From: a virus | Lineage: Duplodnaviria; Heunggongvirae; Uroviricota; Caudoviricetes | Virus record (IMG/VR): IMGVR_UViG_3300033463_000007 | Location: 159,865 to 223,864 of that record | Length of the DNA: 64,000 bases | Strand: one strand, 5' to 3' | In this document: positions 135 to 64,000 of the stretch, in pieces | Numbering within the stretch: the stretch's first letter is position 1 | Layout of the letters: each line of letters opens with the position of its first letter | Position numbers and translations under genes: made by a program | Notes under the pieces: generated by a model | The model's database searches: none | What the model was told of the DNA's origin: nothing | The model's input: the letters and a program-made list of their open reading frames with translations, nothing else

Positions 135-1187
135 ATGGTAACTAATAATATACAAATGGCATTTGGTGCTTTAAAGCCAAAAAAAGATATTCGAGAATTT
201 AAGGCTATTACAAACAAAGCTGCGCAAGTTGTTGATATTCCAGATGAATTTGAATTAACTATGCCTCCTGTTAAATCACAAGGACAAGTAGGTAGTTGTG
301 TAGCTCATTCAATTTCTCTTGCTATAGAATATTATAATAAGTTGCAAGAGGAAACTGACATAACTTTTAGTACTGGATATATATATGGTAACAGACGAAA
401 TCAACGTGGGCATAACGGAAGCGGTATGTATGTTGATGCAGCACTTAGTGCTGTTGTTAAATGGGGAGATGTAGCTAAAGATAAATTTTCTGAAAATATA
501 GAAGTTCCAGAAGCTATTACATTGTTTGAAGAGCGTGCTTTTGATTTAGCTCCAGAAGCCTACCCGAATAGATTTACGGAATATTTTGCGCTTAAATCTG
601 ATGAACAAATTAAGTTAAATCTTATGCAAAATGGACCAGTTGTTTTTAGTATTCCATGATATAAGGATTATGCTGTAGAGGCAAAAACATATATATTAAA
701 ACATACTAATAATGCAACATCTGGCGGTCATTGTATGGTTATTTATGGCTGAAATAAGGATGGTTGAAAATTTCAAAATTCTTGGGGCACCTCTTGGGGA
801 AATAGGGGTCGTGCCATTTTGCCATATGGAACCAAAATGTCCACTTGTTATGGCATTAAAGATACAATTATGGCAAGAGCACATGAGAAACAATTAGCAG
901 AATTAAAAGAAAAGTTAGAGAAATTAACAGAAAATTTAGAAAATAAAGAAAAAGAATTACAAAAAACTATAGAAAAATTAAAAGTTCTTGATAAGAATAA
1001 TGCAGAACAAGCAGAAGAGCTTCAAGAACTTAAAGAATCTAAAACAGCTCTTACTAAAGAAATTAATAGTTTACAAAAACAGATTAAAGAATTGCAGATA
1101 CAAAATGAACAACTTGAAAGCCTAAGAGCAGAATTATTTGCAATTAAGAAACCATTTGAAAAAATGCCAAAATGATTAGTAAAAATA
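135..1187 (+). CDS. Papain-like (C1 family) cysteine peptidase with C-terminal coiled-coil; contains in-frame TGA codons read as Trp
   Basis: QGQVGSCVAHS Cys motif, GGHCMVIYG-W-NKDG-W-KFQNS-W-G His/Asn region where the three W are TGA; ORFs 135..659 and 819..1175 are in same frame and joined only if TGA is sense; coiled-coil KEKLEKLTENLENKEKELQK tail. Confidence 0.65.
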
Positions 1188-1240
1188 ATTAATGCTATTC
1201 TTAATTTATTTAATTAATTTATAAATGGAAGGTTAGTTAT

Positions 1241-2413
1241 ATGAGTATTGTTATTAATAATAGATCATATAATAATATAGATGCACTGAGAGTAAAATCT
1301 TTAGAAGATGGGGGATCTATTTCAGAAAAATGATTTTATTCTGCTGATAAGTCTCAGGCAAAAATAGGTGAACCATCTTCTTCTGAAATTAAAATAATTA
1401 CTCCGGATGTTAATTACGTATCATTGAGTCAAGTCACCATTCCGCAAATTAACTCTGTTAATTTAGACCCTTCTAAAATTCAGGCTGGCCAAACGATTAC
1501 AATTGGCTGAGCAGGGAATCCGGCTGCTTTATATTCTATCACTGGTACATATACTAATGATGCCACAGCAACAGAATATGATATTCGTAAGGGTAAAATT
1601 GCCTATGTAAAAGGGCAGCGATTAGTTGGTGTATTAACAAGTAGTGGCAGCGCCGGAGAAGAAACTTTAAAAATATCTTCTCTTGCACAATACCCGACAC
1701 GAAACGGTGAGGGTTATTATGACTATGCACAAATTCTGGATGATTCAGATGTAACTGGTTTAAAAGCAGAAAATATTGTTTGTGGAAAAACAATATTAAC
1801 TGATCTTTATGGCACTTTTGGTTCTTTAGCAATTCCATCACAAGCAGCAGATGAGGCTAGTATTCTAGAGGGTAAAGTAGCAAACGTCTATGTTTATAAT
1901 GAGGAAACAGGTGAAGAATCTCTGAGAACAGCTGTAGGTACTATTAGGACTTGGCCTGAAACAGTTTATAATCCTGATAAAAATAATGATAGAACAATTC
2001 CAGCCCAAAGATATATTGCTGAAGACTTAGTAATAAAAAAAGTTAATATAGGTCCCGTGGATTCACAAACACAACAGGTGACTGCTAATCAAATGTTAGC
2101 AGGTACTTCTTTGGCAGTCGGCTATGATGGCACGCCAGAGGGTCTTCTTAGTATAACTGGCACCATTCCCACAAATCCAAACTCTGGTTATACTATTACC
2201 CCGGGTACTTCATCAATAACACTTTCTGGCCCATCTTATATTAGTTCTGATATTACAATTATAGGTGATACCGATTTAGTTACTAATAATATACTGGAGG
2301 GTATTACTATTTTTGGTGTTACCGGAACTCTAAAATCAGAGGAGACTATTTATACAGAATTATGAACAAGAATATATGGTACTCCAGAGCCTGTGGCTGA
2401 AGCTATATTTTAA
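1241..2413 (+). CDS. Tail fibre-like repeat protein (TGTYT module family)
   Basis: RBS GGAAGG upstream of ATG; continuous frame through 4 TGA codons; repeated motif ITGTYTNDATATEYDIRKGKIAYVKGQRLVG shared with neighbouring genes. Confidence 0.5.
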
Positions 2414-2460
2414 ACTAAAAATAGTTTTCTAATAGATAATATTAAAAGGATATTAAAAAT

Positions 2461-5400
2461 ATGCCAACAAATAAAGAAAACTTTATAAATAAATTAAATA
2501 CCCTAGCTGATGCTGTTAAGACCAAGAGACCACTAGCTGAGGGTACGGATTATACTATTAATAATATTGTTGATGCAATTAGTAGTTGGGAGCTTAGACG
2601 AGCAGAAGAAAGCCCAACAGTTGATTTAGATTTATCTAATGGCAATCAGGTAATTATACCTACTGTAAGTGGTAATGTCTTATCTCAGGTCACTATTCGG
2701 CAACCGGTAGATCAGGAAGGCCATAATATATTTATTTCTGATAATATTAGGTCTGGAATAACTCTTGGAAATGTAACCGGAACTTATACAGCTGTAAATG
2801 AGAATGCTGTAACAGCTGCAGATATAAGATTTAATAAAAAAGCCTTTGTAAATGGTAGCGATGTAATAACTGGTTCCATGTCAGATTATAGTGGAACTAC
2901 TTTAATTGTTCCAACTTTTACAAATGGTACACCCTCACAGTCATCAACATCCCATATAGCTACACAAAATACTTTTGTAACAAGTAATATTAATTATGCA
3001 AATATTTGGTATTCAAATTTAGACCCCACAAAGATTCTTAATGGTGAAACAGTCAATATTGGCACTACTGATGATATTAGTACACCAAAAGTTACTGTTA
3101 CTGGTACTTACACTCCAGCAGTTGAAACTCTAATTCTTGACCAACCAAATGAACCCGGTGGTTTAAAACTTAATTATCAAAATACAGTTGGTTATGATTT
3201 ACCAGTACAAATTTTAACACACAGCCAAGGTAAATTAATAGAACAAGTTATATTATATCGTCCTGAAAATCTTATACCGGAAAATATTAAATATAATATA
3301 CCTATTGCAGGTACTGCTGGTACCTTTACAAGTAGTTCTACTGTTTCCAGTGGACAAATTGCGGCAACAGCTGATAAAATACGTTCTGGTTATTCCGCAT
3401 GGGTAAATGGTACTGAAATACAAGGTTCAATACCTAATAAAAGTGCAGAGGTTTATAATCCAACTATTGCATCGTCAAGTTCCGGCACAGCCACTTTAAA
3501 TCCTATAACAATTAGTTCTGGTCAATACTTAACTGGAAATCAAACGATTACAGCGACAGAGGTAAGAGGGTTAAATCCTGAATATATTGTTTCTGGGCAT
3601 AGCATTCAAATTGGCTATACACAAAATGATACTTTTAGACCAATTCATACAACACAAGGCTCTTACACAGGTATTGCTTCAGAATATATTGAGCCAACAG
3701 CTATAGAGTTTAATGAATTAATTTTCCGCACTACTACAAGTGGAATTACGATAGATTCAGATGTTGTAGTAAATCCAGAACCTGGGCATGCTTTTAGTCA
3801 GGTTAAAATTAAAAGGCCAACTGATATGTCTGCAGTTGCTGCAAAAATTGCTTATAATCAAACTATACACGGTATTTCTGGTACATTTTCTTATGAAGCA
3901 AATAATTCTATAACTGCCAGTTCAATTAGAAATGGCAAAGTTGGTTTTGTTAATGGTAATAAAATTATCGGTACAATGCTTGAGCGTGATGTCGGTAATA
4001 TTGGACTTTCTACTACAGATTATACAATAGCAGCAAATCAATATTTAGCAGGTGCTCAGACAATTTATGGTGCCAGAATAACAACCACGGATACTGGCGG
4101 TACAATAGCTGTTAATGATTTTAATGCTTTAGCCGGATTACTTGTTAAAGATGTAACTTTAGATATTGGTGATACTGGTGATACTGATAGACTTGCTCAT
4201 ATTGTTGGTACATATGATAACCAAAAACCGGAAGAAGTTGGAAATGTAACATTAAATTTCTGAGATTCAACACATTCAACTTATTATGATCAATTAGACA
4301 TTAATCCAAGCACACAAAATACAGTTTTTTCTCATGTTTTAATAAATAAACCAGCGACTTTAATTAAAGGAAATATTGCATCTGGAGTTTCTATCGCTGG
4401 TGTTACAGGTACTTATACAAATGATGCAAATGCAACATCAAGTGACATTTATCCTGGCAAAACTGCTTATGTACAGGGCACTAAAGTTTCTGGCAGCATG
4501 CAAACACGTGCCGCTGCAACAATTTATCCGAGTGCTTCAGACCAAACAATTGCTTCAGGTCGTTATTTAACTGGTACTCAAACAATAAAAGCAACGACTG
4601 TTAAAGCATATGACCCAGTATTACAAGAAACTGTTCCGTTAGATCCTGATTATATTATTAAGGGTGTTGTTGTAAAAGTTGGTGATGAAGTTAATAATGC
4701 TCGTGTTGCTAGTATAACTGGTACTTTCGATTATACTGAATTTATTGAAGGTCCAAGAGAAGTTGATTTATCATTAGCTTCTGGCAATCAAACTATAAAT
4801 CCAGAGGCCACTGGATATTCAATGAGCCAAATAATAATTAAGAAGCCCGTAAATTTATTAGCTAGTAATATTAAAAAAGATGTTGAAATTGCAGGTATTA
4901 CTGGAACATTTGAAGAAATAAAAGTATTAGAAATAGATGCAAATTACAATTCAGCATCAACTATTAATCTCACTACTGCACAAAAGAATGTTTTTACTTC
5001 TTTGGCTTTAGGTAGTACTATTAAATTAAAATTTACACAATCTAATAGTATTAAATATTTTACTAAAACCTATTCAAGCACCTCCGGTAGTGAAACATTT
5101 ATTGTTCTTACTGCACCAATTTCAAATGATTTTGAATGAAGTAATACTAAATATATTAGAACAAAAACTGAATTATGTTATATTGCTATTGCTAATAATA
5201 CAGCAGAATTACATTTGGTATATAAACAAGGCTCGTCTGCTGCTTTATTAGGTGAAATTAGGCCTAATACTGATCTTGTATTAGACCCAAGCACTGAAAC
5301 ACGTATTTATGATTATACAGATGCTACAATAGGTATTCCTACATCATTAACGGTTACAGGTCTTGCTTATACAGCTGTTCAACCAGAGCAGCTTTTACAG

Positions 5401-5688
5401 GGGACAACATTAAATATTGGAACCGCAGCGGATCCAGATGCGGTTTATACTGTAACAGGTACTGCTATATCAGAATATGACTTATATTCATTATTAAATA
5501 ATGCTAAATGGGGTAATTCTGGTGATCTTGCAGGTACAACTGTATTATTCTCTAATACACCTGAGCTCACAAATATTGGTACTAAAGCAGTTACATTTAC
5601 AGCTGGCTCTGATAACTATACAAGTTTAACAATTAATAATAATGAAATTAAATATAATGATACTCGTGTATATGGCGAAGCTGAGTAA
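2461..5688 (+). CDS. Large tail fibre / receptor-binding repeat protein (~1075 aa) formed by ORFs 2461..4263, 4498..5139 and 5215..5688 joined through TGA=Trp
   Basis: All three standard-code ORFs are in the same frame and separated only by TGA codons (4261, 5137); repeated x-I/V-TGT-Y/F-T beta-strand motifs; ends with TAA. Confidence 0.55.
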
Positions 5689-5703
5689 AGGAGAAATATA
5701 AAT

Positions 5704-7116
5704 ATGGCAAAAAGTTGACTTGCTGGAGCTTCAAAAAAAATTACGATAACTGGCGGAAATGACAGTACAAATACAGATATATTAAAATATATGCAATTAA
5801 ATGCAGGCTGAATACAAACACTAGCTACACCAGTATTATCATTAACAGACTTAGCTATTACTTGGCCAAGTGTAACTAATAGGACCTCTTATACTGTTTA
5901 TGTTAATAATCAGTCCTATCAAGATCAAGTAATGATAAATTCTTTTGATATATCAGACTTTACACCCGGGACTTATTCAATTACAGTAAAAGCTATTGGA
6001 AGTACTTATTATCAAGACAGTTCATTAAGTACACCTTTTGTATATACATACTTAACTGCTCCAACAAATCTTGCAATAACAAATGATACAACATTATCTT
6101 TTACAGGTTCTTCTGGTGCAACTCATTATAGAGTTATTGTAGATTCTGAGACAATTCTTGGTATTTGTAATAGTTCTCCAGTTGACTTAGCTAGTTTTCA
6201 AGGCTGGGGTAATCTGACAGCAGGTGGTCATACAGTACAGTTACAAGCATTTGCTGATAATGCACGAGATAGTCAAGTTTCAACGGGTGTATTAGTTAGA
6301 ACTGGTGGTTATAATTTAACAGTTTCTACTTGACAAGAATCTGGTGAAGATAGTGGTCAATTTCAAGTTTTATATTCAGATAACTCCTCTGCTTGAGTTG
6401 GCTCTGGTACAACTAAGCATGTTTTACAAGTACTAGACTATAGATATACTTGAGATTATCAACAATCTTGAGAAATTAATGATGCCCAGCCATCATTACC
6501 TTATACACTTGCTGCAAATGCCTCTGCCTCAGTTTATTCTGAATCAAGTGGTGGCGGTGGGACCTGCTTTATTGCTGGTACACAAATAACTCTTGCTGAT
6601 GGTACCACAAAAGCTGCTGAGGATATTACTTATGATGATTCTTTGTTAGTTTGAAATTTCTATACTGGTACTTTTGATACAGCTAAACCCTTATGAATTA
6701 AGAAAGAAGAATTATCACCCTGTTATAATTTAGTCACTTTTGACAATGGTAAAACAATTGGTTTTGTTGGACCTGGACAAGAGATCGGTTATCATAGAAT
6801 TTATAATAATGAAGCTAAACAATTTACACATACTGGTGTAGCTGATACACCGGTAGGTACAACTTCTTTTGATGTTTTTGGACAGCAACCAAAAATAGTA
6901 AGTCAAGAAGTTAAATGAGAAAGAGTAAAATATTATAATATAATAACAGATAAATACTATAATTTATTTACAAATAATATTTTAACTTCTTGTATGCTAT
7001 CTAATGAATATGAAATATTAGATAATATGACTTATAATATAAATAATAGATATTTAACAGATAAACAAATTACTGATTATCTACAAAAAATTGAGGATTT
7101 AAGACGTCCAAATTAG
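5704..7116 (+). CDS. Structural protein with fibronectin-III-like repeats and C-terminal Hint (intein/hedgehog-like) domain
   Basis: ATG with RBS AGGAGAAATATAAAT upstream; many in-frame TGA; motif GGGGTCFIAGTQITLADGTTKAAEDITYDD is a classic Hint block A; ends TAG at 7114. Confidence 0.45.
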
Positions 7117-12428: not shown

Positions 12429-13370
12429 ATGTATAGTAAATTGGCAATTACCACAGACACCTATACAGGCTGAAAAAAGTGGTCACCCACACAGGAAGAA
12501 CTTGGAAAATTCTATGAAACTTCAGAGCTTCCTTTTCAGTTATTTGAAAATGAGTATTTAATAATTTATGATGATGAAAATTTACCAACTTATTATTGTT
12601 ATGAAAAAGGTAGATTGCGGCCATTTAAAGGAGGTTCAATTAAAACAATTCATGATACCCCACCAGAAGACGAGCTTAATATTGAAACTGGTGGCTCAAA
12701 AAAACGCAAGACAAAAAAATATTCAAAAGGAAAACAGACTATAATATATCCACGTAATGATGAACAAGTATGCGCTTTTGACTTATTAAGGGATAATACA
12801 AAAACAATAAAATTATTATTAGGTGTATGAGGATCTGGTAAAGATTTGCTGATGGCAAATTCAGCACTAGAGGCCTTACGGCTTGGAAAATACGAAAAAA
12901 TTATTTGGTTAAGGAATAATGTAAGAACAAAAGATACACCGGATTTGGGTGCCCTTCCTGGTGAAGTTTGAGATAAATTGTGTGCTTATGTAGGTCCATT
13001 TATTGACTCAGTTGGGGAAGATTCTGTAAAGACTATGTTACAAAAAGGTACATTAAAAGTTGAACCTTTACAGTCTATCAGAGGACGTAATTTCAGTGAT
13101 AGTATAATTATTTGTTCTGAAGCTGAAAATTTAACTTATGATCATTTAAAATTAATTGTTGCTAGAGCAGCTGAAAATAGCTGCATTATGATAAACGGTG
13201 ATCTTCGCCAACGTGATTTATCTATTTTTGAAAGGTCACAAGGCTTAGAAAAATTTATAGAGTGCTTAAAAGGCGAGCCTTTATTTGGTTATGTTTATTT
13301 ACCGAAAACAGAACGTAGCGCAACAGCAAGATTAGCCGATAAATTAGATGCCTTTGAATTTAAAGATTAA
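12429..13370 (+). CDS. phoH: PhoH-like ATPase
   Basis: RBS AAAGGAG + ATG 12429; ORFs 12615..12830 and 12978..13370 same frame joined by two TGA (GV-W-GSGKD Walker A, GEV-W-DKL); C-terminal MINGDLRQRDL PhoH motif. Confidence 0.6.
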
Positions 13371-38563: not shown

Positions 38564-38564
38564 T

Positions 38565-39956: not shown

Positions 39957-39958
39957 CA

Positions 39959-41609: not shown

Positions 41610-41628
41610 TTTTAAAGGGGCGCATTAA

Positions 41629-43601: not shown

Positions 43602-43607
43602 TAAATT

Positions 43608-44564: not shown

Positions 44565-44677
44565 ATTCGCTAAATTATATTGTATAATAATTATACAAGT
44601 GTGCAAATATATGTAAATATAAAACATACTTGATAAAATAGATTAATAAAAAAGAATTATAAAATAAGGAGATTTTT

Positions 44678-51191: not shown

Positions 51192-51198
51192 AAACTTT

Positions 51199-53037: not shown

Positions 53038-53101
53038 TTTTTTATCTTGACCGGTAAAATCAGTGCTAAATTAATTAGATTAATATTTTGGAGGTTTAAT
53101 T

Positions 53102-53896
53102 ATGGCATATGGTTTTATTTATAAAATAATAACTACAGCTTCTAATAAAGTTTATATTGGACAAACAACTAGAACTATTGAAGAACGTTACCAAGAGCAT
53201 TTGAAAGCAAGAAATAGTAAAGATAAAAATACTTTACATTTATATCTTGCTATGAATAGGTATGGCGTTGATACTTTTAGTGTTGAAAAAATTGATGAAG
53301 CTAATACACAAGAAGAACTAAATCAAAAAGAAATATATTGAATTAATTTTTATGATTCAATGAATAATGGATATAATATGGCACCTGGTGGTAGCATAAA
53401 TATTTTTGAATCTGAAAAAGTTAGAAAAAAACATGCAGCAAGCATGCGTGATCCAAAAACACGAGAAAAAATTTCTAAAACAATGCATGAGCTTAGAACT
53501 ACTTTTGGCTTTTCTGAGGAACATAAAAAAAAGATACGTGAATCAAGTCGAAAGCGAAAAGAAGAACGGGCAAAGTTAGGTTTAAAATATTATGATGATT
53601 GTTCACATTGTGCAACTAGATCAAAAGCAGTTTATTGTATATTAGATACCGGTGAAAAATTTGAATTTGATTCTATTTTACACGCTGGTAAATGATGATA
53701 TGAAACATACAAACCCTTTGGTGAAACTTATTCTACTGCTACCTATCAAAGAAAAATTGAAGCCTCTATTGCGGGTAAAGAAATTATTTTCCAATCCGGA
53801 CATGACAGTAGAAGTCAAGGTAAAAAAAATATTATTATTAAAATAACTAATATAAAATGATTTTATAAAGATAATTGAAATGGAGGTGATGCCTAA
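53102..53896 (+). CDS. GIY-YIG homing endonuclease inserted within polA (intron-encoded)
   Basis: GFIYKIITTASNKVYIGQTTRTIEERYQEHL GIY-YIG motif; ORFs 53102..53341 and 53360..53695 same frame joined by TGA; preceded by GTGCTAAATTAATTAG motif and RBS GGAGG. Confidence 0.7.
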
Positions 53897-55066
53897 TGAA
53901 AAAGTCTGTCAATATTCGCACAAAATATCGAATTGTTGGTTCAGACTATTCTTAAGTCCGGTCAGGAATTACGACTAGCTGCTTTTATTAGTCAAGATAA
54001 AAAATTACTTGATGCTTATGCAAATAATCAAGATGCTTATGCTATTATTGCAAGCACAATTTTTAATGTACCATATGAAGAATGCCTAGAATTTTATCCA
54101 GCTGGTACTGAGCTAGAAATTGGTGGCCAAAAGGTTATTGCCGGTAATAAAACTCATTTAAATCCAGATGGTAAGGCAAGAAGATCTGTTGGTAAAACAA
54201 TGGTGCTTGCTGGAAACTATGGAATGTCAGGTGCTGGTGCTGGTTCTCTTATGAAGAAAACAGCTAAAGAAGGCAAAGAACTCCTCGAAAAATATTTTCA
54301 GATGTTTACCGGACTTGGTAGTGCTATAGAAAAAGCAAAGGCAGATTTAAAAAAGACTGGTTACGTTGAAGGTCTTTGTGGGCGTAGACGTAGGCTGCCA
54401 GATATTTTTCTTTCTCCCTATGAAGTAAAATATAAAGATCCTGCTAAATTAGAGCAGCAGAATTTTAATCCATTTATAAATTGTCAAAATAGAAATTATA
54501 TTGATCCAACACTTCAGAAATATATTACAAAAACTAATTTTTGTAAAAATAATACTGACTATGAAGCTTTGGTACAGGAAGCTGCTAAAGATGGTGTAAT
54601 TGTACAGGCTAATACAGGTAGAATTGCGCAGGCAGAGAGACAGTGTTTTAATGCTTTAATTCAGGGCGCCGCTGGTACACTTACTAAAAAAGCTATGATT
54701 GATATTTTCAACGATGAACAATTAAGAGCTTGGGATACACATTTAATTGTTACAGTACATGATGAAGTATTAGTTGAATGTAAAGAAGAATATGCAGACT
54801 TGGTTGAGCAAAGATTACCGGAAATTATGATTAATGCAGCTAAAGAACTTGGCATTGAAGCGCCCAGTATGAAATGTGATCCGTATAATGTTACTAGATG
54901 GTATGCAGATAATGCAGCAGCAGCAATTTTAAAAGAATATAATAAAGCTGTTGAAAAAGGAAAGTCAAATGAAGAGGCTCTTGAAAAAGTTATTCAAGAG
55001 CATGAGGAAATTCCAGGAGAAGCCATTATTAAAACAGTTGAAACTGGTTGTGATTTAAATTTTTAA
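53897..55066 (+). CDS. polA: DNA polymerase I C-terminal part (motifs A, B, C); contains a 7-nt frame discontinuity inside motif A at 53947-53953
   Basis: Frame a: MKKSVNIRTKYRIVGSDYS-TAA (motif A Asp); frame b from 53954: GQELRLAAFISQD..., RRSVGKTMVLAGNYG (motif B), VHDEVLVE (motif C). Confidence 0.6.
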
Positions 55067-56216: not shown

Positions 56217-56687
56217 ATGAAACCAGACCTTGGAAAAAAATTTGAGGAGCTTTTTAAGTTAGACTGAAAAAGATGCTTTCCAGATACTTTTATTTTTAGA
56301 CTAAAAGATGATTTAGCTGGATTTAAAAATGCTAGTCAAAATCCTTGTGATTTTATGTGTTTTCCAGGAAACTACTTATTTTTAGTTGAAACCAAAGAAC
56401 ACCATGGCGCCTCGATCCCGTTTACAGCAATTCCTCAATATGAAAGATTATTAAAATATAAAGATTTACCAAATGTATATCCCGGTGTTATAATCTGATT
56501 TTCAGAAAAAGATCTAGTAATGTGAGTTAGCATCAATGATATGGAAAAAATGGTTTTAAATGGTGAAAAATCAATTGGAATAAGAATGCTAAAAAATAAA
56601 TTGTATAATATAATAGTTTTACCGTCAGTTAAAAAACGGGTATATTTAGAAGTTGATTATACACCTTTAATACCCAAGGAGGATTAA
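56217..56687 (+). CDS. PD-(D/E)xK nuclease (RecU-like Holliday junction resolvase candidate)
   Basis: PCDFMCFPGNYLFLVETKE D...E-x-K motif; 3 TGA=W. Confidence 0.35.
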
Positions 56688-56688
56688 T

Positions 56689-57210
56689 ATGACTGAAAAA
56701 TTGGAAAAAGCTAAACGTGAGGTTGATGAAACTTATAATTTATTATTAGAAGCCGTTAGAGATGTCACTGCACAATATACAGCTGAGCTTGATGGAATTG
56801 TTAAGGAATTATCAAAAGGAATTAATTTATTTTCTAATACAGAACTTTGGGATTTTCAAGTTAGACTAAGTATTGCTGCTTATGTTCTTGGTAATGCAAA
56901 AGAACAGAGCTCATTAAAAGAGGCTTGTGCAGAAGCTCTTTATAAAGAAAATTTAGCTCGTGCTTTTAATACTTCTGTAGGTACACAGGAAGCTAAAAAG
57001 CAAGCTTCAATTCTTGATTCTACAGATAAGCAAGCAATTTCTATGCTATATGCCTCTGTAGCAAGTCTATTAAAAACTAAATGTGATGAGGCTCATAGAC
57101 TGGTAAATGTATTACAAGGCATTCAAATTTCACGGGCTGCAGAAGCAAAAATTTCAGCAAGTCCAAGAAGTGAATCAGAACGACAAATTTTATTAGAAGA
57201 TATTAGATAA
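56689..57210 (+). CDS. Hypothetical helical protein
   Basis: 173-aa ORF. Confidence 0.35.
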   Translation: MTEKLEKAKREVDETYNLLLEAVRDVTAQYTAELDGIVKELSKGINLFSNTELWDFQVRLSIAAYVLGNAKEQSSLKEACAEALYKENLARAFNTSVGTQEAKKQASILDSTDKQAISMLYASVASLLKTKCDEAHRLVNVLQGIQISRAAEAKISASPRSESERQILLEDIR

Positions 57211-57223
57211 AGGAGAATAAATA

Positions 57224-58450
57224 ATGGCAGAAGTAAAACAATTGTCATTTAAAGATGTAGTTAAAAAAATTAATAAAGCATGCAAGGATTGAGATATTTT
57301 GGGTTCTGGTAATTTTTCTCAGAACTTAAAAAAATTGTCTCTAGGTACACTTGGTTTTGATTGTCCTTTTAAAGGTGGTTTGCCATATGGGCAAATTGTT
57401 ACATTTAGTGGTGTTGAGCACTCAGGAAAATCTACTGCAGCGGTACTTGCTATGGCTCAATACCAAAAAGAAAACCCAGATAAAATTTGTATCTATGTTG
57501 ATGCCGAAAATACACTTTTAACACAGTCTGATTATTTTCAATCAATTTCATCAATTAGTTATGATGAAAATCATTTTGTTAGATATGATTGTACAGGTAG
57601 ATCTGCAGAAGAAATTTTTCAGGATTTAATTATGCTTCAAGAAACTGAAGAAGTTGGTATGATTGTGATTGATTCTTCCAGAGCACTTATTTCACAAGCA
57701 GATCTTGATAATGAATTTGTAAAAGATAATGGACAACGAGCAAGTGTCGCAAAACCTATTGGTAAATTTATTAAACAAATGATGATGTATTTACCAAAAA
57801 GAAATAATATTCTGTTAATTATTAATCAGGTTACAGTTGAAAAAAGTTTATATGCCACTACTTATACTGAACCAGGTGGATATGCTTTAAAATATTTTCC
57901 ATCTCTAAAGGTTAGATTTGGTACCCGTACTTATACAGCTGGCGATAAAACTGATATTACACAGTCAAAGGTTGATGAAAAAGTTGATGGTATTAGGTTG
58001 CATTTTGCGATTGTTAAAAGCCGTTTGGGTGCAATTGGAAAAGACGGTGGTTTTATTACTATCCGTTATAATAGCGGAGTAGATACTGTTTTTGATCTAC
58101 TAGAAGTTGCATTAAAGGCTGGATTTATCAAAACACCCACTAATAAGTCTTATGTTCTAACTAATCTGTTAACCGGTGAAACTTATAGAGATGGCGAAAA
58201 TGAGCTTGTCTTTGAAGCAAGTCGTGGTGCTGATGCTTATGCTGCATTAGTAAATTATTTATGTAGTAATCCTGTTTTTGTTAATGAATATTCAAAAATG
58301 ATTAATGAATATTTATCACAAAACAAAGTTAAAGTTGATTTAATTGATGAACAGATTATTAATGATTTAATGAAACAAGAGAGTGAAATTATGGGTGACG
58401 TTGAAATGACTGATACTCAGGCGCTTGCTGCAGATGGAGTAGATGAATAA
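57224..58450 (+). CDS. RecA/UvsX-like recombinase
   Basis: GGLPYGQIVTFSGVEHSGKST Walker A, IVIDSSRAL Walker B region; one N-terminal TGA (CKD-W-DIL). Confidence 0.65.
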
Positions 58451-58454
58451 TAAA

Positions 58455-58847
58455 ATGAGTAATAGCTTTAGAATTCATAATACTGAAGATACAAAAAATC
58501 ATAGTACTCGTTGATATTCATCAAGACAGGAAGCAGTTGTTGCAAAAACTGTAGATGGCAAACAAATGCCGAATAGCGGAGCTACAACATTTCTTCCAGG
58601 AGATGTTAGTATTGATAATTTATTTTCACTTGAATGTAAAACAAAAACAACTAATTCAGAGTCTATTTCTGTTAAACGTGAATGGTTTGAAAAACAAATT
58701 AAAGAAACTATACAATCCGGAAAAAAATATAGTGCTGTAGTTATTAATTTTGGTCCAGATAATCCATATAACAAAAATTATTATATTATTGATGAGTATC
58801 TTTTTCAAGAGCTACTTGACTATTTAAAGGAAAAACCTAATGATTAG
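58455..58847 (+). CDS. Small PD-(D/E)xK-like nuclease candidate
   Basis: PGDVSIDNLFSLECKTK pattern; one TGA=W. Confidence 0.3.
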
Positions 58848-59272: not shown

Positions 59273-60328
59273 ATGATAGTGTCAAACACCTATGGCTCTT
59301 TAGCTGCAAAATGCAGACCTGATACTTTAGATAAAATTTTAGGTCAGCCAATTACAATTAAAATTTTATCTGAACAGCTAAAACGGCGGCTATTTAAAAA
59401 TGTTTATTTATTTACAGGACAAACCGGTATTGGCAAAACAACGGTTGCTAGGTGCTTTGCCAATGCAATTAATAATAATATTGGTTATCCTATTGAAATA
59501 GATGCTGCATCAAATAATTCTGTTGAAGATGCACGAGCATTAGTCGCAGCTGCACATGAAAGGGCTCTTGTTGGAGAATATAAAATTTATATTATTGATG
59601 AATGTCATATGTTAAGTACAGCTGCTTGGAATGTTCTTTTAAAATGCTTAGAAGAATGTCCTAAATATACAATTTTTATGCTGTGTACAACTGAAAAATA
59701 TAAAGTACCAAAGACTATCCAAAATAGGGCGCAATGTTTTAATTTAGTTCCAATTGCACCAGAAATTATTAAAAAAAGATTAGAAGAAGTTTGTAATTTA
59801 CAAGGTTTTTTAAACTATAATGAAACTTGTGATTTTATAAGTAAAATAGTTGATGGAAGTCTTCGTACAGCTTTAAATTATCTAGAACAGTGTGCCGATT
59901 ATTCAATTGATTTAAGTTTAACAAATGCTAAGCAAGTATTAAATCATTTATCTTATGAAGTTTTGTTTAAACTTACCTGGGCTATTTTTGAACAAAATGA
60001 ACCAGAAATAATTAATACTATTGATACATTATTTAATACTGGATATGATTTAAAAACTTTTATTGATTGGTATTTAAATTTTATATTAGATCTTTTGAAA
60101 TATACTTTATTTAACCAAAATATAAAAGTAACAAGTATCCCAGAATATTTGGCAACTGAAAATAATGCAGTAGTTCAGTATACTGTAAATCAGCCGGCTA
60201 GCGTAGCAAAATTTAATTTTATTTTAGATCAATTATTGGATCTTAAACAACTTATTAAGTATGACTTAAATTATAAAAATACAATTCTTATTAAATTTTT
60301 ACAAATAGCAAGAGAATTAAATGGCTAA
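59273..60328 (+). CDS. Clamp loader ATPase (DnaX/gp44-like AAA+)
   Basis: YLFTGQTGIGKTTVARCFA Walker A, IYIIDECHML Walker B, SRC-like region. Confidence 0.6.
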   Translation: MIVSNTYGSLAAKCRPDTLDKILGQPITIKILSEQLKRRLFKNVYLFTGQTGIGKTTVARCFANAINNNIGYPIEIDAASNNSVEDARALVAAAHERALVGEYKIYIIDECHMLSTAAWNVLLKCLEECPKYTIFMLCTTEKYKVPKTIQNRAQCFNLVPIAPEIIKKRLEEVCNLQGFLNYNETCDFISKIVDGSLRTALNYLEQCADYSIDLSLTNAKQVLNHLSYEVLFKLTWAIFEQNEPEIINTIDTLFNTGYDLKTFIDWYLNFILDLLKYTLFNQNIKVTSIPEYLATENNAVVQYTVNQPASVAKFNFILDQLLDLKQLIKYDLNYKNTILIKFLQIARELNG

Positions 60329-61115
60329 CTCAATTATTGGACAGGAAAAAATTTTAGATAAATTAAATAGTTATACACTACAAACATTACCTAGAACTTT
60401 ATTGTTTTTAGGTGAGGTTGGAAGTGGAAGACATACTTTAATTAATTATATTACTGAAAAATTTAATCTAGCAAGAATAGAATTAACAGAAGATTTTTTG
60501 ATTTCTAATTTTGATCTACCTGTAATACCAACAATGTATATAATTGATTTAGATTTATTTACCGAAAAACAGCAAAATCAATTTTTAAAATTTATTGAAG
60601 AGCCATCAAATTTTGCTTATATTGCACTTATTGCTAGATCAGATATTAATATTTTATCTACAGTACTAAATCGTTGTTTGAAATTGCCTCTTGCTATCTA
60701 TACAAAATCACAGTTAAAGGAAATTTGTCCAATAGCTTCTGATTTAGGTTTACAATTAAACTTGACACCCGGCAATTTAAAAACCGTTGATTTTAAACAG
60801 CTTGACCAATTATATTCTCTAGTTGAATCTTTTTTAAAAAATATTAAAAGTTATTCACTAGTGGAGTATTTAAAGCAAGCATTATTATTAAATTATAAAG
60901 AAAATTATAATAAATATGATTATACTTTATTTTTAAAATTAATTCTTTATATTTCATATAATATTTATAGTACTGAAAAAAATATATTATATTTAAGAAT
61001 TTATATATTTACAACTAAATGTTGTCAAGAATTATTGTATAAAAATATAGATAAAAATAATTTTATCTTAAATTATTTAATAAATTTAAAGGAGATTATA
61101 ACCCATGAATCTTAA
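60321..61115 (+). CDS. Clamp loader accessory subunit (delta-prime/gp62-like)
   Basis: LLFLGEVGSGRHTL degenerate P-loop; adjacent to AAA+ subunit. Confidence 0.4.
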   Translation: MANSIIGQEKILDKLNSYTLQTLPRTLLFLGEVGSGRHTLINYITEKFNLARIELTEDFLISNFDLPVIPTMYIIDLDLFTEKQQNQFLKFIEEPSNFAYIALIARSDINILSTVLNRCLKLPLAIYTKSQLKEICPIASDLGLQLNLTPGNLKTVDFKQLDQLYSLVESFLKNIKSYSLVEYLKQALLLNYKENYNKYDYTLFLKLILYISYNIYSTEKNILYLRIYIFTTKCCQELLYKNIDKNNFILNYLINLKEIITHES

Positions 61116-61440
61116 GGATATCACAGAAAAAGCTGCTTCCCTTGAAGATCTAAAAATTGAAATCATTGCAAGAAATACTGCCATTTCTGTAATGGTTAAT
61201 GTCATTAATGCCTATCTACAGGTACACAGTCTTTCTCAAGTAGAGATTGAAGCAATTCAGAAGGCACTTGATAATGAAAATAATCAGGCCATTTCTCTTA
61301 TGACCGTGCTTGGTAATGCGCTCTCTATTACAGAGCCTCCTGCAGCACCTACAGAGACTGAAGCACCTGCAGATGGAACAGATACACCCGCAGTGGAAGC
61401 TGTAACGGAAACTACTACTGAAACAACAGAAGAGGCATAA
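61105..61440 (+). CDS. Hypothetical protein with acidic Thr/Glu-rich tail
   Basis: 111-aa ORF. Confidence 0.3.
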   Translation: MNLKDITEKAASLEDLKIEIIARNTAISVMVNVINAYLQVHSLSQVEIEAIQKALDNENNQAISLMTVLGNALSITEPPAAPTETEAPADGTDTPAVEAVTETTTETTEEA

Positions 61441-61442
61441 TA

Positions 61443-62342
61443 ATGGAATTACAAGAATTAAAAAATAAAATTTTGACGAATACTTTGTCTGATAGTTTTT
61501 TAATTCTGGTATATTCTGATACCGATTTTATTGTAAATCAGTATATAGATCAAATCTGTAATATAAAAAATTATAATAAAATTATAGTTCAAACACTTGC
61601 AGATGTAAATAACTTAAAGAATAAATTATTTGGTGCCGATCAAGATTTATATATAATATGTAATGATACTTTTTCAGAAGATTTTTTAGATTATAGTATT
61701 TTTACAAATTGTATTATTTCTTGTAAAAATATAGATAAAAATATATTTGATAAGGTTAAAAATTATATAGTTACTGTACCTGCTCCAGTTTCTTGGCAGG
61801 TACAGGATTATATGAAAGTTATCTGTCCGGGGTTAGATTTAAATAATTATAATTGGCTATATGAGACAGCAGAACATGATTTATATAAAATTACTAATGA
61901 GCTAGATAAATTAACTTTATTTGATATTACTGATAAACAACAAATTTATAATTTTATAAAATTTGATAAATTTGGTAGTATATATAATATAACACAAACA
62001 CAATTAGCAAATAGTATAGAAACTTTAGATAAAATTAAGTTAAATGATTATTTAATTTATCAACAAAATTGTGATATTGAAGCTATTGGACTCATAAAAA
62101 TTTTAATTTATTATTTTAAGTTAATTTTTTATATAAAATATGTAAAAGCAACAGCTAATGAGCTAGCAATTTCAGATAAACAATATTTTTATTTAAATAA
62201 AAATATAAATTTATCTAGCCAATTTTTAATATTAGCTCTTAAATTTTTATCTGAATTAGATTTAAAAATTAAAGAGGGTAGAATTGAATTACAAAATAAT
62301 ATTTTAGTAAGTTATATTATTTGTAGATTATTGAGCTTCTAG
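61443..62342 (+). CDS. Hypothetical protein (possible clamp-loader delta-like subunit)
   Basis: Position within clamp loader cluster only. Confidence 0.25.
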   Translation: MELQELKNKILTNTLSDSFLILVYSDTDFIVNQYIDQICNIKNYNKIIVQTLADVNNLKNKLFGADQDLYIICNDTFSEDFLDYSIFTNCIISCKNIDKNIFDKVKNYIVTVPAPVSWQVQDYMKVICPGLDLNNYNWLYETAEHDLYKITNELDKLTLFDITDKQQIYNFIKFDKFGSIYNITQTQLANSIETLDKIKLNDYLIYQQNCDIEAIGLIKILIYYFKLIFYIKYVKATANELAISDKQYFYLNKNINLSSQFLILALKFLSELDLKIKEGRIELQNNILVSYIICRLLSF

Positions 62343-62351
62343 GAGGCTATA

Positions 62352-63290
62352 ATGGATTTAGAAAATTTTTCTTATTCAAAATTAGATACCTATACTCAAT
62401 GCCCATTTAAATTTAAACTAAAATATATTGATGGATTTTATTTTTATGCAGATTCTATAAATACGGAAATAGGGACTGCCGTTCATAAATGTGAGGAACA
62501 AATTGCTAAAGATATTCAGGCTCAACGAAATATAGACTATATAAAATATAAAAATGAGCTTTTATTAGTTTTAGCAGAATTAAAATATAAGTATCCAACA
62601 GAATTTTTTAACTTAGATAAATCTGGGAGAACTTTTGAACAAAAAATATATGAGTATCTAAATTATGGTATTTATAAACTAGAACAATATATGAAAGATC
62701 ATCCAACATATAAAATTGTTGGTATTGAGCAACCTTTTAAAGTAGTTTATAAGTCAGGTCAAAATTTAAATGGCTTTATTGATAGAATTTTTTATGATGA
62801 GGTATCACATAAATATATTATTCAAGATATAAAAACTTATGCAGTACCAATTGAAACTGAAAAATTAACTACACCACTTCAATTTGTAGTTTATACTTAT
62901 GCTGTTCAGGATTTATATAAATGTAAGCTAAGTCAAATAATTTGTCAGTATTATTTACCATTTTGTTCTATAACACAAACAGCTTGTACGACTGGTTATC
63001 TTTCACGAGGCGAAGCTAAAATAGATAAAATTTTTATAAATATTGCTGAGCAGAATTTTGAACCAAAGCCGACGCCATTATGTAATTGGTGTGAATATGC
63101 AGCTACTAATCCAGATGCTGGAGAAGAAAGTAAATTTAAATGCCCATATTTTTGTTATTGGGATCGTAATACTCGCAATTCTAAAGATATTACAAAATTA
63201 GAAAATAAATGGCAAGGATTAGAACAGCACAATAAAATTATGGAAAACTATTTAACAAAACATAATTTAAATAAAAAGGAGGTGAATTAA
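62352..63290 (+). CDS. PD-(D/E)xK nuclease with C-terminal 4-Cys cluster (Cas4/RecB-like exonuclease)
   Basis: N-terminal C at QCPFKF; NGFIDRIFYDEVSHKYIIQDIKTY (D...QDIK motif); C-terminal CNWCEY...KFKCPYFC Fe-S-like cysteines. Confidence 0.5.
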   Translation: MDLENFSYSKLDTYTQCPFKFKLKYIDGFYFYADSINTEIGTAVHKCEEQIAKDIQAQRNIDYIKYKNELLLVLAELKYKYPTEFFNLDKSGRTFEQKIYEYLNYGIYKLEQYMKDHPTYKIVGIEQPFKVVYKSGQNLNGFIDRIFYDEVSHKYIIQDIKTYAVPIETEKLTTPLQFVVYTYAVQDLYKCKLSQIICQYYLPFCSITQTACTTGYLSRGEAKIDKIFINIAEQNFEPKPTPLCNWCEYAATNPDAGEESKFKCPYFCYWDRNTRNSKDITKLENKWQGLEQHNKIMENYLTKHNLNKKEVN

Positions 63291-63476
63291 ATGGCAAAAG
63301 TAATTGTAAATCCAGAAGATGGCCTTGAAGCTGCACTTCGTAAGTTTAAGAAGCAAGTTATAAAAGAAGGTATTCTTGATGATCTTAAAAAGAAAGAATA
63401 TTATAAATCAAAGTCTGTAAAAAGACGTGAGAAGTCAAAGGAAGCAAGACGTAGACTTGAATTAGGTAAAAATTAA
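63291..63476 (+). CDS. rpsU: Ribosomal protein bS21
   Basis: MAKVIVNPEDGLEAALRKFKKQVIKEGILDDLKKKEYYKSKSVKRREKSKEARRRL aligns with bacterial S21 ([42 protein letters not shown]...). Confidence 0.7.
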   Translation: MAKVIVNPEDGLEAALRKFKKQVIKEGILDDLKKKEYYKSKSVKRREKSKEARRRLELGKN

Positions 63477-63489
63477 ATTATATGAATAC

Positions 63490-64000
63490 AAATATTTGTT
63501 ATGACATTTTAATAATTGGTGCGGGACCTGCTGGAATGACTGCTGCTATTTATGCTGGAAGATCTAATAAACAAGTAGCTTTAATTGACAAAAATGGTTT
63601 TGGTGGAAATATTGCCAATTCACCTAAAGTAGAGAATATTCCAGGTTTTGTTAGCATTTCGGGTGCAGATTTTGCAGCCAATATGTATGAGCAAATAAGT
63701 AATTTTTCAACTGTAAATCATATTATTGCAGAAGCATTATTTATAGACTATCGATATGGCTTGTTTAGAATTACACTAGATGATAAATCTATAATTTGCG
63801 GTAAAACATTAATTTTTGCTACCGGTACAGAACACAGGCAATTAAAATTAGATACTAAGGATATTTATTATTGCGCTACTTGTGATGGACCATTTTTTAA
63901 AAATAAAAATGTTATTGTGGTGGGATCTGGAAATACTGGTGCCACGTATGCCTTAGAATTATCTACCTATTGTAAAAATGTATATTTATGTGATTTAACA
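63490..64000 (+). CDS. trxB: Thioredoxin reductase-like flavoprotein (5' part; continues beyond window)
   Basis: YDILIIGAGPAGMTAAIYAGRS FAD-binding GxGxxG; CATCDG redox-active CxxC. Confidence 0.65.

What the first reader, a model, noticed from the sequence alone, without database searches (positions are those of the whole stretch)
135..64000. TGA usage partitions genes into TGA-free and TGA-rich sets
TGA-free genes: tdk, trpS, prfA, both topoisomerase II subunits, dnaB, primase, the dnaC-like gene, thyA, folD, the dCMP deaminase and DHFR genes, polA exon 1, the clamp and clamp loader, and rpsU. TGA-rich genes: all tail-fibre paralogs, the Hint protein, both C1 peptidases, the CHAP lysin (more than 10 TGA), the amidase (9 TGA), the holin-like gene, and three homing endonucleases. 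This matches the proposal that stop-codon recoding restricts late and lytic gene translation until the suppressor is active.
Basis: seen in the sequence. Interest (0 to 1): 0.7.

Follow-up and report, generated by a model that had tools for sequence, protein, structure and literature searches.

The report
Two-code gene split in recoded phage
This stretch of a roughly 232-kb gut phage reads TGA as tryptophan in its lysis, tail-fibre and homing-endonuclease genes but keeps its replication and code-changing genes free of TGA, a pattern already published for its relatives (the 'Jade' phages); the new detail is that its TGA-reading tRNA gene is interrupted by a self-splicing-type intron that standard tRNA finders miss.

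Summary
With TGA read as sense, I called 74 genes. They hold 75 in-frame TGA and 190 TGG, and all complete genes end in TAA or TAG. Fifty-two genes have no TGA; 31 would be expected from a uniform density, and heterogeneity gives p about 1e-13. Twenty-four annotated replication, nucleotide and translation genes have 0 TGA and 81 TGG. Lysis, fibre and endonuclease genes have 57 and 20 (p = 3e-26).

TGA means Trp. It sits at invariant papain-family tryptophans and swaps with TGG in orthologs.

The switch machinery lies in the window and is TGA-free: an opal suppressor tRNA(UCA), TrpRS and RF1, directly upstream of a TGA-rich lysis cassette. The Jade representative of Borges et al. shares this layout, so this is a new member of a known kind.

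Three things are added here:
- The suppressor tRNA is split by a 290-nt group I intron. An intron-less allele in a close relative confirms the junction.
- The TGA share in TGA-using genes (0.78) equals the ordinary A-over-G third-position bias. The partition therefore comes from selection against TGA in pre-switch genes.
- The best holin candidate is TGA-free.

Expression timing is untested.

The parts
14812..14844 (+). Opal suppressor tRNA(UCA), 5' exon. It ends ...GCGGT-CTT, the last U being nt 34.
   Evidence: ARAGORN with introns allowed. The in-silico spliced product folds as a perfect cloverleaf with anticodon TCA. The anticodon arm CGGTCTTCAAAACCG is identical to that of uninterrupted tRNA(TCA) genes in L008, L009 and L010.
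14845..15134 (+). 290-nt group I intron inside the anticodon, between nt 34 and 35. It carries no ORF and ends in G.
   Evidence: Rfam Intron_gpI matches over the full model length: 17.7 bits, E = 0.048 here, and 30.4 bits, E = 4e-6 for the 198-nt version in relative L007. Both are below the gathering score of 50. The intron-less allele in L010 is 74/74 identical to spliced L007.
15135..15175 (+). Suppressor tRNA 3' exon (CAAA-ACCGC...), with discriminator G and encoded CCA. A terminator-like hairpin follows at 15175-15207.
   Evidence: Eight of the nine differences from the L007 exons form four fully compensatory stem pairs.
17142..18131 (+). trpS, tryptophanyl-tRNA synthetase; 0 TGA / 2 TGG.
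   Evidence: Pfam tRNA-synt_1b, E = 1e-71. NCBIfam trpS equivalog, 324 bits against a cut-off of 177.
18135..19196 (+). prfA, release factor 1; 0 TGA / 2 TGG. A terminator-like hairpin follows at 19201-19229.
   Evidence: NCBIfam prfA equivalogs score 472 and 467 bits, above their cut-offs; prfB scores 261, below its cut-off of 370. PET and GGQ motifs present, no SPF. Hairpin.
19270..20127 (+). Papain-family (C1) peptidase, first gene of the lysis cassette; 9 TGA / 2 TGG.
   Evidence: Pfam Peptidase_C1. The TGA at codons 220 and 226 align to the invariant Trp of ...YWIVKNSWG... in solved cathepsins and ervatamin.
20217..20663 (+). 148-aa protein with an N-terminal TM segment; 3 TGA / 0 TGG, the first at codon 4.
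   Evidence: All three TGA are conserved as TGA in the Jade representative.
20693..21073 (+). Best holin candidate; 0 TGA / 2 TGG (an exception to the lock idea).
   Evidence: PHROG holin, E = 1.3e-6. Weak Pfam Phage_holin_6_1 hit. Orthologs in L007, L008 and L010 are also TGA-free.
21530..23023 (+). CHAP-domain lysin; 8 TGA / 0 TGG.
   Evidence: Pfam CHAP. Codon counts. Preceded by a terminator-like hairpin at 21485-21507.
50404..51192 (+). Amidase_2 lysin; 7 TGA / 2 TGG. It lies directly after the tmRNA and tRNA-Pro genes.
   Evidence: Pfam Amidase_2. Counts.
135..1217 (+). Second C1 peptidase, with a coiled-coil tail; 4 TGA / 3 TGG.
   Evidence: Pfam Peptidase_C1. Counts.
1241..7116 (+). 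Fibre-like genes (390 aa: 3/1; 1075 aa: 2/4) and a 470-aa protein with a Hint-like C-terminal half (9/2).
   Evidence: Four larger fibre-like genes just upstream of the window have 45 TGA / 8 TGG.
28431..29456 (+). NUMOD3 homing-endonuclease-like gene; 6 TGA / 0 TGG.
   Evidence: Pfam NUMOD3. Counts.
53102..53896 (+). GIY-YIG endonuclease gene lying between the two polA parts; 5 TGA / 0 TGG.
   Evidence: Pfam GIY-YIG. polA parts.
12429..13370 (+). PhoH-like gene; 3 TGA / 2 TGG.
   Evidence: Pfam PhoH. The orthologs have 6/0 in the Jade representative, 4/1 in L010 and 6/1 in L012.
56217..58847 (+). Recombination block: resolvase (3/0), an unannotated TGA-free ORF (56689-57210, 0/1), RecA (1/0, TGA at codon 23), resolvase (1/1).
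   Evidence: PHROG Holliday junction resolvase hits. Pfam RecA.
14167..14691 (+). 174-aa gene next to the suppressor tRNA; 1 TGA / 6 TGG here. All seven Trp codons are the opposite choice in the 79%-identical ortholog of L007.
29462..45493 (+). Run of 21 consecutive TGA-free genes with 75 TGG. It includes thyA, Pnkp/RNA ligase, dCMP deaminase, DHFR, folD, dUTPase, a DnaC-like loader, DnaB and primase.
23058..26952 (-). Type II topoisomerase A and B subunits; 0 TGA / 12 TGG.
51268..55066 (+). Split family-A DNA polymerase (51268-53037 and 53933-55066); both parts are TGA-free (6 and 2 TGG).
59273..63476 (+). Clamp-loader subunits, a PD-(D/E)XK nuclease and rpsU (63291-63476); all TGA-free.

Best explanation
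The window comes from a roughly 232-kb phage that switches the infected cell from the standard code to TGA = Trp partway through infection.

How the switch would work:
- The phage brings its own switch module: an opal suppressor tRNA(UCA), a TrpRS to charge it, and RF1 to keep termination at TAA and TAG. All are written without TGA, so the unmodified host ribosome can make them.
- The tRNA must first lose a group I intron that sits inside its anticodon.

How the partition arises:
- Genes needed before the switch (replication, nucleotide metabolism, the switch module itself) are held TGA-free by purifying selection.
- In genes needed only afterwards (wall-degrading enzymes, fibres, homing endonucleases, resolvases), TGA and TGG are synonymous. 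They have drifted to the genome's A-over-G third-position bias.
- As a result, these genes cannot be translated in full before the suppressor is active.

Shown here: the partition, TGA = Trp, the module and its layout, the split tRNA, and conservation in relatives.
Inferred: a standard-code host, the timing, who charges the tRNA, and self-splicing of the intron.
For: - Partition statistics.
- TGA = Trp: TGA sits at invariant papain-family Trp positions. TGA in window genes pairs with TGA or TGG in orthologs in 31 of 43 cases, with 19 TGA/TGG interchanges. In TGA-free genes, TGG pairs only with TGG or with a non-Trp codon, never with TGA.
- Selection direction: 0/155 TGA in the TGA-free set. 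In genes with at least 2 TGA the share is 67/86 = 0.78, which equals the A-ending share of Lys, Glu, Gln, Leu and Arg NNR pairs (0.77-0.91). GC3 is equal in both sets.
- No complete gene ends in TGA.
- Module: tRNA(UCA), the trpS and prfA equivalogs, and terminator-like hairpins separating the module from the lysis cassette.
- Relatives: TrpRS, RF1, TK and Pnkp are TGA-free, and C1 peptidase, CHAP and PhoH use TGA, in L007, L008, L009, L010 and L012. L008 is JS_HF2_S141_scaffold_159238, the Jade representative. For Jade phages, Borges et al. describe a suppressor tRNA + TrpRS + RF1 module in standard code upstream of a recoded lysis cassette (preprint 10.1101/2021.08.26.457843).
- Upstream fibre-like genes: 45 TGA / 8 TGG.
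Against: - There are no expression data. Temporal classes are inferred from function.
- The holin candidate is TGA-free.
- RecA, PhoH and the resolvases carry TGA, although resolvases are late genes in T4 (my own knowledge).
- Only about 86 kb of the roughly 232-kb genome was examined.
- The host is unknown. Its standard code is inferred from the strict TGA avoidance, from the phage carrying its own module, and from the Firmicutes prediction of Borges et al..
- The tRNA's Trp identity could not be shown from its sequence.
- The Rfam intron scores are below the gathering threshold.
Confidence: 0.78

Rival explanations
1. Active safety lock. TGA is positively selected in lysis genes specifically to prevent premature or host-forced lysis. 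This is the strong form of the published proposal, an adaptive layer on top of the passive partition.
For: The wall-degrading enzymes are the most consistently and heavily TGA-using genes in every relative: C1 peptidase has 9, 8, 5, 6, 9 and 2; CHAP has 8, 7 and 8. The median first TGA lies at 15% of gene length. [quoted passage not shown]
Against: The TGA share in these genes (0.78-0.82) is what third-position A bias alone predicts. The first TGA is no earlier than a random choice among Trp positions would give (P = 0.36). The PHROG-holin is TGA-free in four phages. Gene class flips wholesale between close relatives for genes with no link to lysis.
Confidence: 0.3
2. Translation-efficiency effect. 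TGA is decoded poorly because it competes with RF2, so highly expressed genes avoid it whatever their timing.
For: Suppression is rarely fully efficient (general knowledge). Some genes show an intermediate state: eight genes have a single TGA, with a TGA share of 0.33.
Against: Avoidance is absolute (0/155) across 52 genes of very different likely expression levels. Fibre and other structural genes, usually among the most highly expressed, are the richest in TGA: 45/8 upstream of the window. The other NNR pairs show no codon-bias difference between the sets.
Confidence: 0.07
3. The host already reads TGA as Trp (a code 4 Mollicute-like host), and the TGA-free genes are recent acquisitions from standard-code bacteria.
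For: The closest named bacterial TrpRS homologs are from Acholeplasmatales, Anaeroplasma and Onthovivens, at about 54% identity.
Against: Both gene sets have the same GC3 (0.15) and the same NNR usage, so the TGA-free genes are fully ameliorated except at Trp codons. TGG stays TGG in TrpRS, RF1 and Pnkp across relatives that are 55-80% identical. A code 4 host would make the phage's tRNA(UCA), TrpRS and RF1 unnecessary. CHAP and Amidase_2 lysins imply a walled host. Acholeplasma and Anaeroplasma use UGA as a stop codon (my own knowledge).
Confidence: 0.03
4. Artefact. The TGA-rich ORFs are pseudogenes or mis-called frames, or TGA encodes Gly or Sec rather than Trp.
For: None beyond the fact that gene calls depend on the code assumed.
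Against: Family domains run across the TGA codons. TGA lies at invariant Trp positions. Orthologs swap TGA and TGG. The sequence is identical in independent assemblies from other samples. The tRNA has an ordinary type I shape with a short variable arm, not a SeC shape.
Confidence: 0.01

Closest known systems
Jade-clade TGA-recoded phages with a 'code change module' (Borges et al., bioRxiv 10.1101/2021.08.26.457843; published in Nat Microbiol 2022)
   Same: - Genome of about 200+ kb, with TGA read as Trp.
- The suppressor tRNA, TrpRS and RF1 are written in standard code, directly upstream of a lysis cassette (C1 peptidase, TM protein, holin) that contains in-frame TGA.
- Recoded modules are scattered through the genome.
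- The clade representative itself (L008) shows the same synteny and the same per-gene partition.
   Different: - TrpRS is only 55% identical to the representative's, so this is a different species or genus.
- Gene order within the module differs: here tRNA, about 2 kb, TrpRS, RF1; in the representative RF1, tRNA, Metallophos, TrpRS.
- The suppressor tRNA has a different acceptor stem and discriminator (G73 vs A73).
- It is interrupted by a group I intron, which the representative lacks.
Agate (TGA) and crAss-like or Lak (TAG) recoded phages
   Same: Recoded stop codons are concentrated in structural and lysis genes and in an intron homing endonuclease, while replication genes stay in standard code.
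   Different: These are different clades, and most have no phage-encoded synthetase. TAG to Gln recoding uses RF2 rather than RF1.
Mycoplasma/Spiroplasma genetic code 4
   Same: UGA is read as Trp by a tRNA with anticodon UCA.
   Different: In those organisms the reassignment is constitutive and genome-wide. Here two gene sets coexist in one genome, and one of them strictly avoids TGA.
Bacterial tRNA group I introns (cyanobacterial tRNA-Leu(UAA), Azoarcus tRNA-Ile; recently Patescibacteria tRNAs, PMC13011429)
   Same: An intron in the anticodon loop of a bacterial-type tRNA gene. It follows a U and ends in G. The insertion between nt 34 and 35 is the position I recall for tRNA-Leu(UAA).
   Different: The host gene is a phage opal suppressor, on which a genetic-code switch depends. 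I found no report of this in four full-text searches.

Membership tests
TGA->Trp (code 4) recoded phage | Coding density rises markedly when TGA is read as sense | tested here: met
   ORF coverage is 80% under code 11 and 93% with TGA as sense. TAG as sense gives only 82%.
TGA->Trp (code 4) recoded phage | In-frame TGA aligns with Trp in homologs | tested here: met
   TGA sits at invariant papain-family Trp positions. In orthologs, 31 of 43 TGA positions pair with TGA or TGG.
TGA->Trp (code 4) recoded phage | Phage-encoded suppressor tRNA with anticodon UCA | tested here: met
   Split gene at 14812-14844 and 15135-15175. The spliced form has anticodon TCA. An intron-less allele exists in L010.
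TGA->Trp (code 4) recoded phage | Host uses the standard code | not testable with these tools
   Inferred from 0/155 TGA in one gene set, from the phage-borne module, and from the Firmicutes prediction for the clade.
Jade clade (Borges et al.) | TrpRS and RF1 in standard code, next to a suppressor tRNA and upstream of a recoded lysis cassette | tested here: met
.
Jade clade (Borges et al.) | Placement in the large-terminase phylogeny that defines the clade | not tested
   No terminase gene lies in the window or in the fetched flanks. Relatedness rests on 55% TrpRS identity and on shared synteny with JS_HF2_S141_scaffold_159238.
Recoding as temporal gate of late or lytic genes | TGA-containing genes are expressed after the suppressor, and TGA-free genes before it | not testable with these tools
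   Only functional classes are available as a proxy.
Recoding as temporal gate of late or lytic genes | Lysis genes preferentially use the recoded stop over the standard codon | tested here: inconclusive
   Lysis enzymes have 31 TGA / 7 TGG (0.82), but this equals the neutral A/G bias. The holin candidate has 0/2.
Group I intron | Match to the family covariance model (Rfam RF00028) | tested here: inconclusive
   Matches cover the full model length but fall below the gathering score of 50: 17.7 bits (E = 0.048) in the window and 30.4 bits (E = 4e-6) in L007.
Group I intron | 5' exon ends in U; intron ends in G; removal restores a functional gene | tested here: met
   The junction is CTT|...G|CAAA. 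Spliced L007 is 74/74 identical to the uninterrupted L010 gene. Four compensatory stem-pair changes separate the window and L007 exons.
Group I intron | Self-splicing activity; P1 and P10 pairing with the exons | not tested
I did not find a convincing internal guide sequence longer than 3 bp by eye.

The most novel reading that the evidence does not exclude
The genetic-code switch is itself gated at the RNA level. The opal suppressor cannot read TGA until a group I intron inside its anticodon is spliced out, so the rate or regulation of splicing would set the time at which lysis and structural genes become translatable. More modestly, intron-split suppressor genes, which tRNAscan-SE in bacterial mode and default ARAGORN cannot see, may account for part of the roughly 65% of TGA-recoded phage genomes in which no suppressor tRNA was found.
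Probability: 0.15. Interest if true: 0.75.

Novelty: new member of a known kind. Interest (0 to 1): 0.4.

Why it matters
This is a clean, quantified example of one genome written in two codes, with the complete switch kit (tRNA, synthetase, release factor) inside a single 64-kb window.

Two points go beyond the published description.
1. The codon-bias comparison shows the partition is produced by purifying selection against TGA in pre-switch genes. It is not produced by enrichment of TGA in lysis genes. This sharpens what the 'lysis lock' hypothesis has to explain.
2. The suppressor tRNA is intron-split. That gives a concrete, testable reason why suppressors go undetected in many recoded phages, and a possible extra control point for the switch.

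A phage TrpRS paired with a UGA-reading tRNA is also the kind of material used for genetic-code expansion (PMC12636597, listed).

Tried and rejected
- Megablast of 20 kb against GenBank phages found no match.
- An IMG/VR scan with TrpRS found no relatives.
- tblastn of RF1 against GenBank phages returned only short, unannotated or distant records. No complete Jade-like genome was available for a whole-genome count.
- A PDB sequence search with the amidase found no hit.
- Default ARAGORN and Rfam at gathering threshold found no suppressor tRNA. ARAGORN at relaxed thresholds returns dozens of spurious tRNAs, so I did not use it.
- ARAGORN's own label for the split gene, tRNA-Ala(tgc), was rejected. 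It needs a shifted anticodon stem with a mismatch, and the intron-less alleles contradict it.
- Assigning the suppressor's amino-acid identity by similarity to a relative's tRNA set was inconclusive: tRNA-Trp(CCA) matched at 48/74, no better than several others.
- The conserved sequence upstream of the tRNA does not recur in the window, so it defines no promoter class.
- The sigma-70 scan was uninformative in this AT-rich DNA (76 sites against 62 expected). Terminator-like sites were enriched (13 against 2.8) and were used.
- A 5' positional bias of the first TGA was tested and is absent.
- The tRNA-Thr intron got only a weak group I score (14 bits).

Full report
WHAT THE WINDOW IS

The window is 30% G+C, and nearly all genes lie on the + strand. 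Stop-to-stop ORFs of at least 100 aa cover 80% of it under the bacterial code and 93% when TGA is read as sense. Reading TAG as sense gains almost nothing.

I called 74 genes with TGA as sense, choosing starts by their AGGAG-type ribosome-binding sites. The lengths agree with genes called independently on public assemblies of the same phage, the longest being 231,970 and 232,051 bp. I missed rpsU (63291-63476), which those assemblies show. It has neither TGA nor TGG.

CHECK OF THE OBSERVATION

The 74 genes hold 75 in-frame TGA and 190 TGG. Twenty-two genes contain TGA and 52 do not. All 73 complete genes end in TAA (67) or TAG (6), never TGA.

The heterogeneity among genes is far beyond chance:
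- The statistic is 187, against a permutation mean of 65 and a maximum of 110 in 20,000 shuffles of Trp-codon labels.
- Fifty-two TGA-free genes are seen where 31 are expected from a uniform per-codon density.

Composition does not explain this. Off-frame TGA density and GC3 are the same in both sets.

By function (Pfam, NCBIfam and PHROGs), the counts are:
- 24 annotated replication, nucleotide-metabolism and translation genes: 0 TGA / 81 TGG.
- Five lysis-cassette-type genes: 31 / 7.
- Fibre-like and Hint genes: 14 / 7.
- Four endonuclease genes: 12 / 6.
- Fisher p = 3e-26.

Several details were off:
- CHAP has 8 TGA, not more than 10.
- The amidase has 7, not 9.
- The 1075-aa fibre-like gene has 2 TGA against 4 TGG.
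- One HNH gene has 1 TGA, and an HNH-like gene has none.
- PhoH (3), RecA (1) and two Holliday-junction resolvases (3 and 1) also carry TGA.
- The only gene with a holin-family hit (20693-21073) has none.

WHAT TGA MEANS

In the C1 peptidase at 19270-20127, the TGA at codons 220 and 226 align with the invariant tryptophans of the ...YWIVKNSWG... motif in solved cathepsins and ervatamin.

Codon-level alignment with orthologs from three related phages gives the following:
- Window TGA pairs with TGA or TGG in 31 of 43 cases.
- There are 19 TGA/TGG interchanges.
- In TGA-free genes (TrpRS, RF1, Pnkp, the holin), TGG pairs only with TGG or with a non-Trp codon, never with TGA.

So TGA encodes Trp.

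THE SWITCH MACHINERY

trpS (17142-18131) and a release factor (18135-19196) are adjacent and TGA-free. The release factor is RF1:
- The NCBIfam prfA equivalogs score above their cut-offs.
- prfB scores below its cut-off.
- The PET and GGQ motifs are present and SPF is absent.

A terminator-like hairpin follows RF1. Then comes a lysis cassette: C1 peptidase (9 TGA), a TM protein (3), the holin candidate (0), a small ORF (0), another hairpin, and the CHAP lysin (8).

Default tRNA searches found only tRNA-Pro and a tmRNA.

Allowing introns, ARAGORN reports two split tRNA genes, both in otherwise non-coding gaps and both with an encoded CCA. It labels the first (14812-15175) tRNA-Ala(tgc), but only by shifting the anticodon stem and accepting a mismatch. 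My reading is:
- The stem is GCGGT/ACCGC.
- The 5' exon ends in CTT.
- The insert ends in G.
- The 3' exon starts with CAAA.
- The 7-nt loop is therefore CU-UCA-AA, an opal suppressor.

Three independent results confirm this:
- Uninterrupted tRNA(TCA) genes next to trpS in three relatives have the identical anticodon arm, CGGTCTTCAAAACCG.
- A close relative (L007, TrpRS 81% identical) has the same split gene with a 198-nt insert. Another (L010, 80%) has an uninterrupted gene at the same position, and it is 74/74 identical to L007 spliced at my junction.
- Eight of the nine differences between the window and L007 exons form four fully compensatory pairs in the acceptor and T stems, so the split gene is under selection as a tRNA.

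The insert matches Rfam's group I intron model over its full length. The scores are 17.7 bits (E = 0.048) here and 30.4 bits (E = 4e-6) in L007, both below the gathering score. I did not verify P1 or P10 pairing.

The same sequence is present in an assembly from another sample, so it is not an assembly artefact.

WHICH WAY SELECTION ACTS

In genes with at least two TGA, TGA makes up 67 of 86 Trp codons (0.78). This matches the A-ending share of the Lys, Glu, Gln, Leu and Arg NNR pairs in the same genes (0.77-0.91). In the TGA-free set those pairs look the same (0.63-0.90), but TGA is 0 of 155. At an expected share of about 0.8, the chance of that is of order 1e-116.

The first TGA is no closer to the 5' end than a random choice among Trp positions would give.

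So the TGA-using genes sit at the neutral expectation for a synonymous pair, and the partition is created by strict removal of TGA from the other set.

Gene class can flip wholesale between relatives:
- The gene at 14167-14691 has 6 TGG + 1 TGA here, 6 TGA + 1 TGG in L007, and 7 TGA in L010.
- The Metallophos gene is 0/9 here and 9/2 in L012.

Such flips are what one would expect if tolerance of the first TGA lets the remaining Trp codons drift.

RELATIVES AND WHAT IS KNOWN

The locus around a TrpRS homolog with 55% identity lies on ena:ERZ5839949:JS_HF2_S141_scaffold_159238 (224 kb). This is the contig named as the Jade-clade representative by Borges et al..

That paper describes, for Jade phages, a 'code change module' of suppressor tRNA, TrpRS and RF1. 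The module is written in standard code and lies directly upstream of a lysis cassette with in-frame TGA. The paper also describes recoded structural and lysis modules scattered through the genome, a preferentially recoded intron endonuclease and TM protein in Agate phages, and predicted Firmicutes hosts.

The per-gene partition is the same in all five related loci I examined. Four fibre-like genes just upstream of the window have 45 TGA against 8 TGG. The finding is therefore a further member of a published kind.

The paper predicted tRNAs with tRNAscan-SE in bacterial mode and found suppressors in only 35% of code 4 genomes. I found no report of an intron-split suppressor in four full-text searches or in the theta-ribozyme paper. 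That search is limited.

MECHANISM AND RIVALS

The best-supported account is a phage-driven switch to TGA = Trp. Pre-switch genes are kept TGA-free, and post-switch genes are unreadable until spliced tRNA(UCA), TrpRS and RF1 are present (confidence 0.78).

- Adaptive lock (0.3, as an added layer). Whether TGA in lysis genes is an adaptive lock is open. The enzymes are consistently TGA-rich, but not above neutral expectation, and the holin candidate is exempt.
- Translation efficiency (0.07). This does not fit an absolute avoidance across 52 genes together with TGA-rich fibre genes.
- Code 4 host (0.03). This does not fit the equal codon bias of the two sets, the phage-borne module, or the wall-degrading lysins.
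- Artefact or another amino acid (0.01). This is excluded by domain continuity, the ortholog codon swaps and independent assemblies.

LIMITS

- There are no expression data.
- The host is unknown.
- About 86 kb of roughly 232 kb was examined.
- The tRNA's Trp identity rests on the codon evidence and the adjacent TrpRS, not on tRNA sequence.
- Self-splicing is inferred.

Noticed in passing
window 45757-46409 (+): A second split tRNA gene, tRNA-Thr(UGU), with a 578-nt insert between nt 36 and 37. The insert ends in G and contains the HNH endonuclease ORF (45771-46319, 1 TGA). The spliced product is a perfect cloverleaf with CCA. The Rfam group I score is weak (14 bits), and there is a 25.6-bit sub-threshold hit to LOOT RNA at 46303-46376.
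   Followed up: partly
window 47139-47213 (+), with genes 47286-49695: A c-di-GMP-I riboswitch (49.5 bits, above gathering) lies directly upstream of three genes: a signal-peptide protein, a SipW-like signal peptidase I (47943-48710), and a second secreted-looking protein. The layout recalls the Bacillus tapA-sipW-tasA matrix operon, here on a phage.
   Followed up: partly
window 49776-50261 (+): A phage-encoded tmRNA (Rfam 85.5 bits; ARAGORN tag peptide DNTIVTFSPFLINALSSMRAAA) is followed 4 nt later by tRNA-Pro(UGG) and then by the TGA-rich amidase gene. Whether ribosome rescue is connected to the code switch is unknown.
   Followed up: no
window 51268-55066 (+): The family-A DNA polymerase is in two parts (51268-53037 and 53933-55066), separated by a GIY-YIG gene with 5 TGA. 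No Rfam intron reaches the gathering threshold, so it is unresolved whether this is an intron or a split gene.
   Followed up: no
window 14167-14691; L007 69-593; L010 7011-7529; L012 4351-5160: Whole genes switch Trp-codon class between close relatives. The 174-aa gene beside the suppressor tRNA is 6 TGG + 1 TGA here and 6-7 TGA in relatives at 79% identity. A Metallophos gene is 0/9 here and 9/2 in L012.
   Followed up: partly
window 19270-20127, 21530-23023, 50404-51192, 135-1217: All four wall-degrading or peptidase proteins end in basic amphipathic or hydrophobic tails (for example ...LWYRIKTIFKQFWNWIKYIWNKIFKK). Five of the nine TGA of the C1 peptidase lie in its last 38 codons. The tails may be membrane-active, which would make early expression costly.
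   Followed up: no
window 35458-37539; L001 19725-20480; L011 14534-15709: A fused polynucleotide kinase-phosphatase/RNA ligase (tRNA-repair type) lies in the window and is TGA-free. Peptide deformylase, S21, thioredoxin-reductase-like and SbcCD-like genes lie just downstream. A more distant TrpRS-carrying phage (L011) has RtcB, Lon and 28 tRNAs, including both tRNA-Trp(CCA) and tRNA(UCA).
   Followed up: no
L012 (ena:ERZ28653429 scaffold_93), 1-20975: This relative has TrpRS and RF1 upstream of a C1 peptidase and many TGA-using genes, but no suppressor tRNA within 10 kb on either side, even with the intron-aware search.
   Followed up: partly
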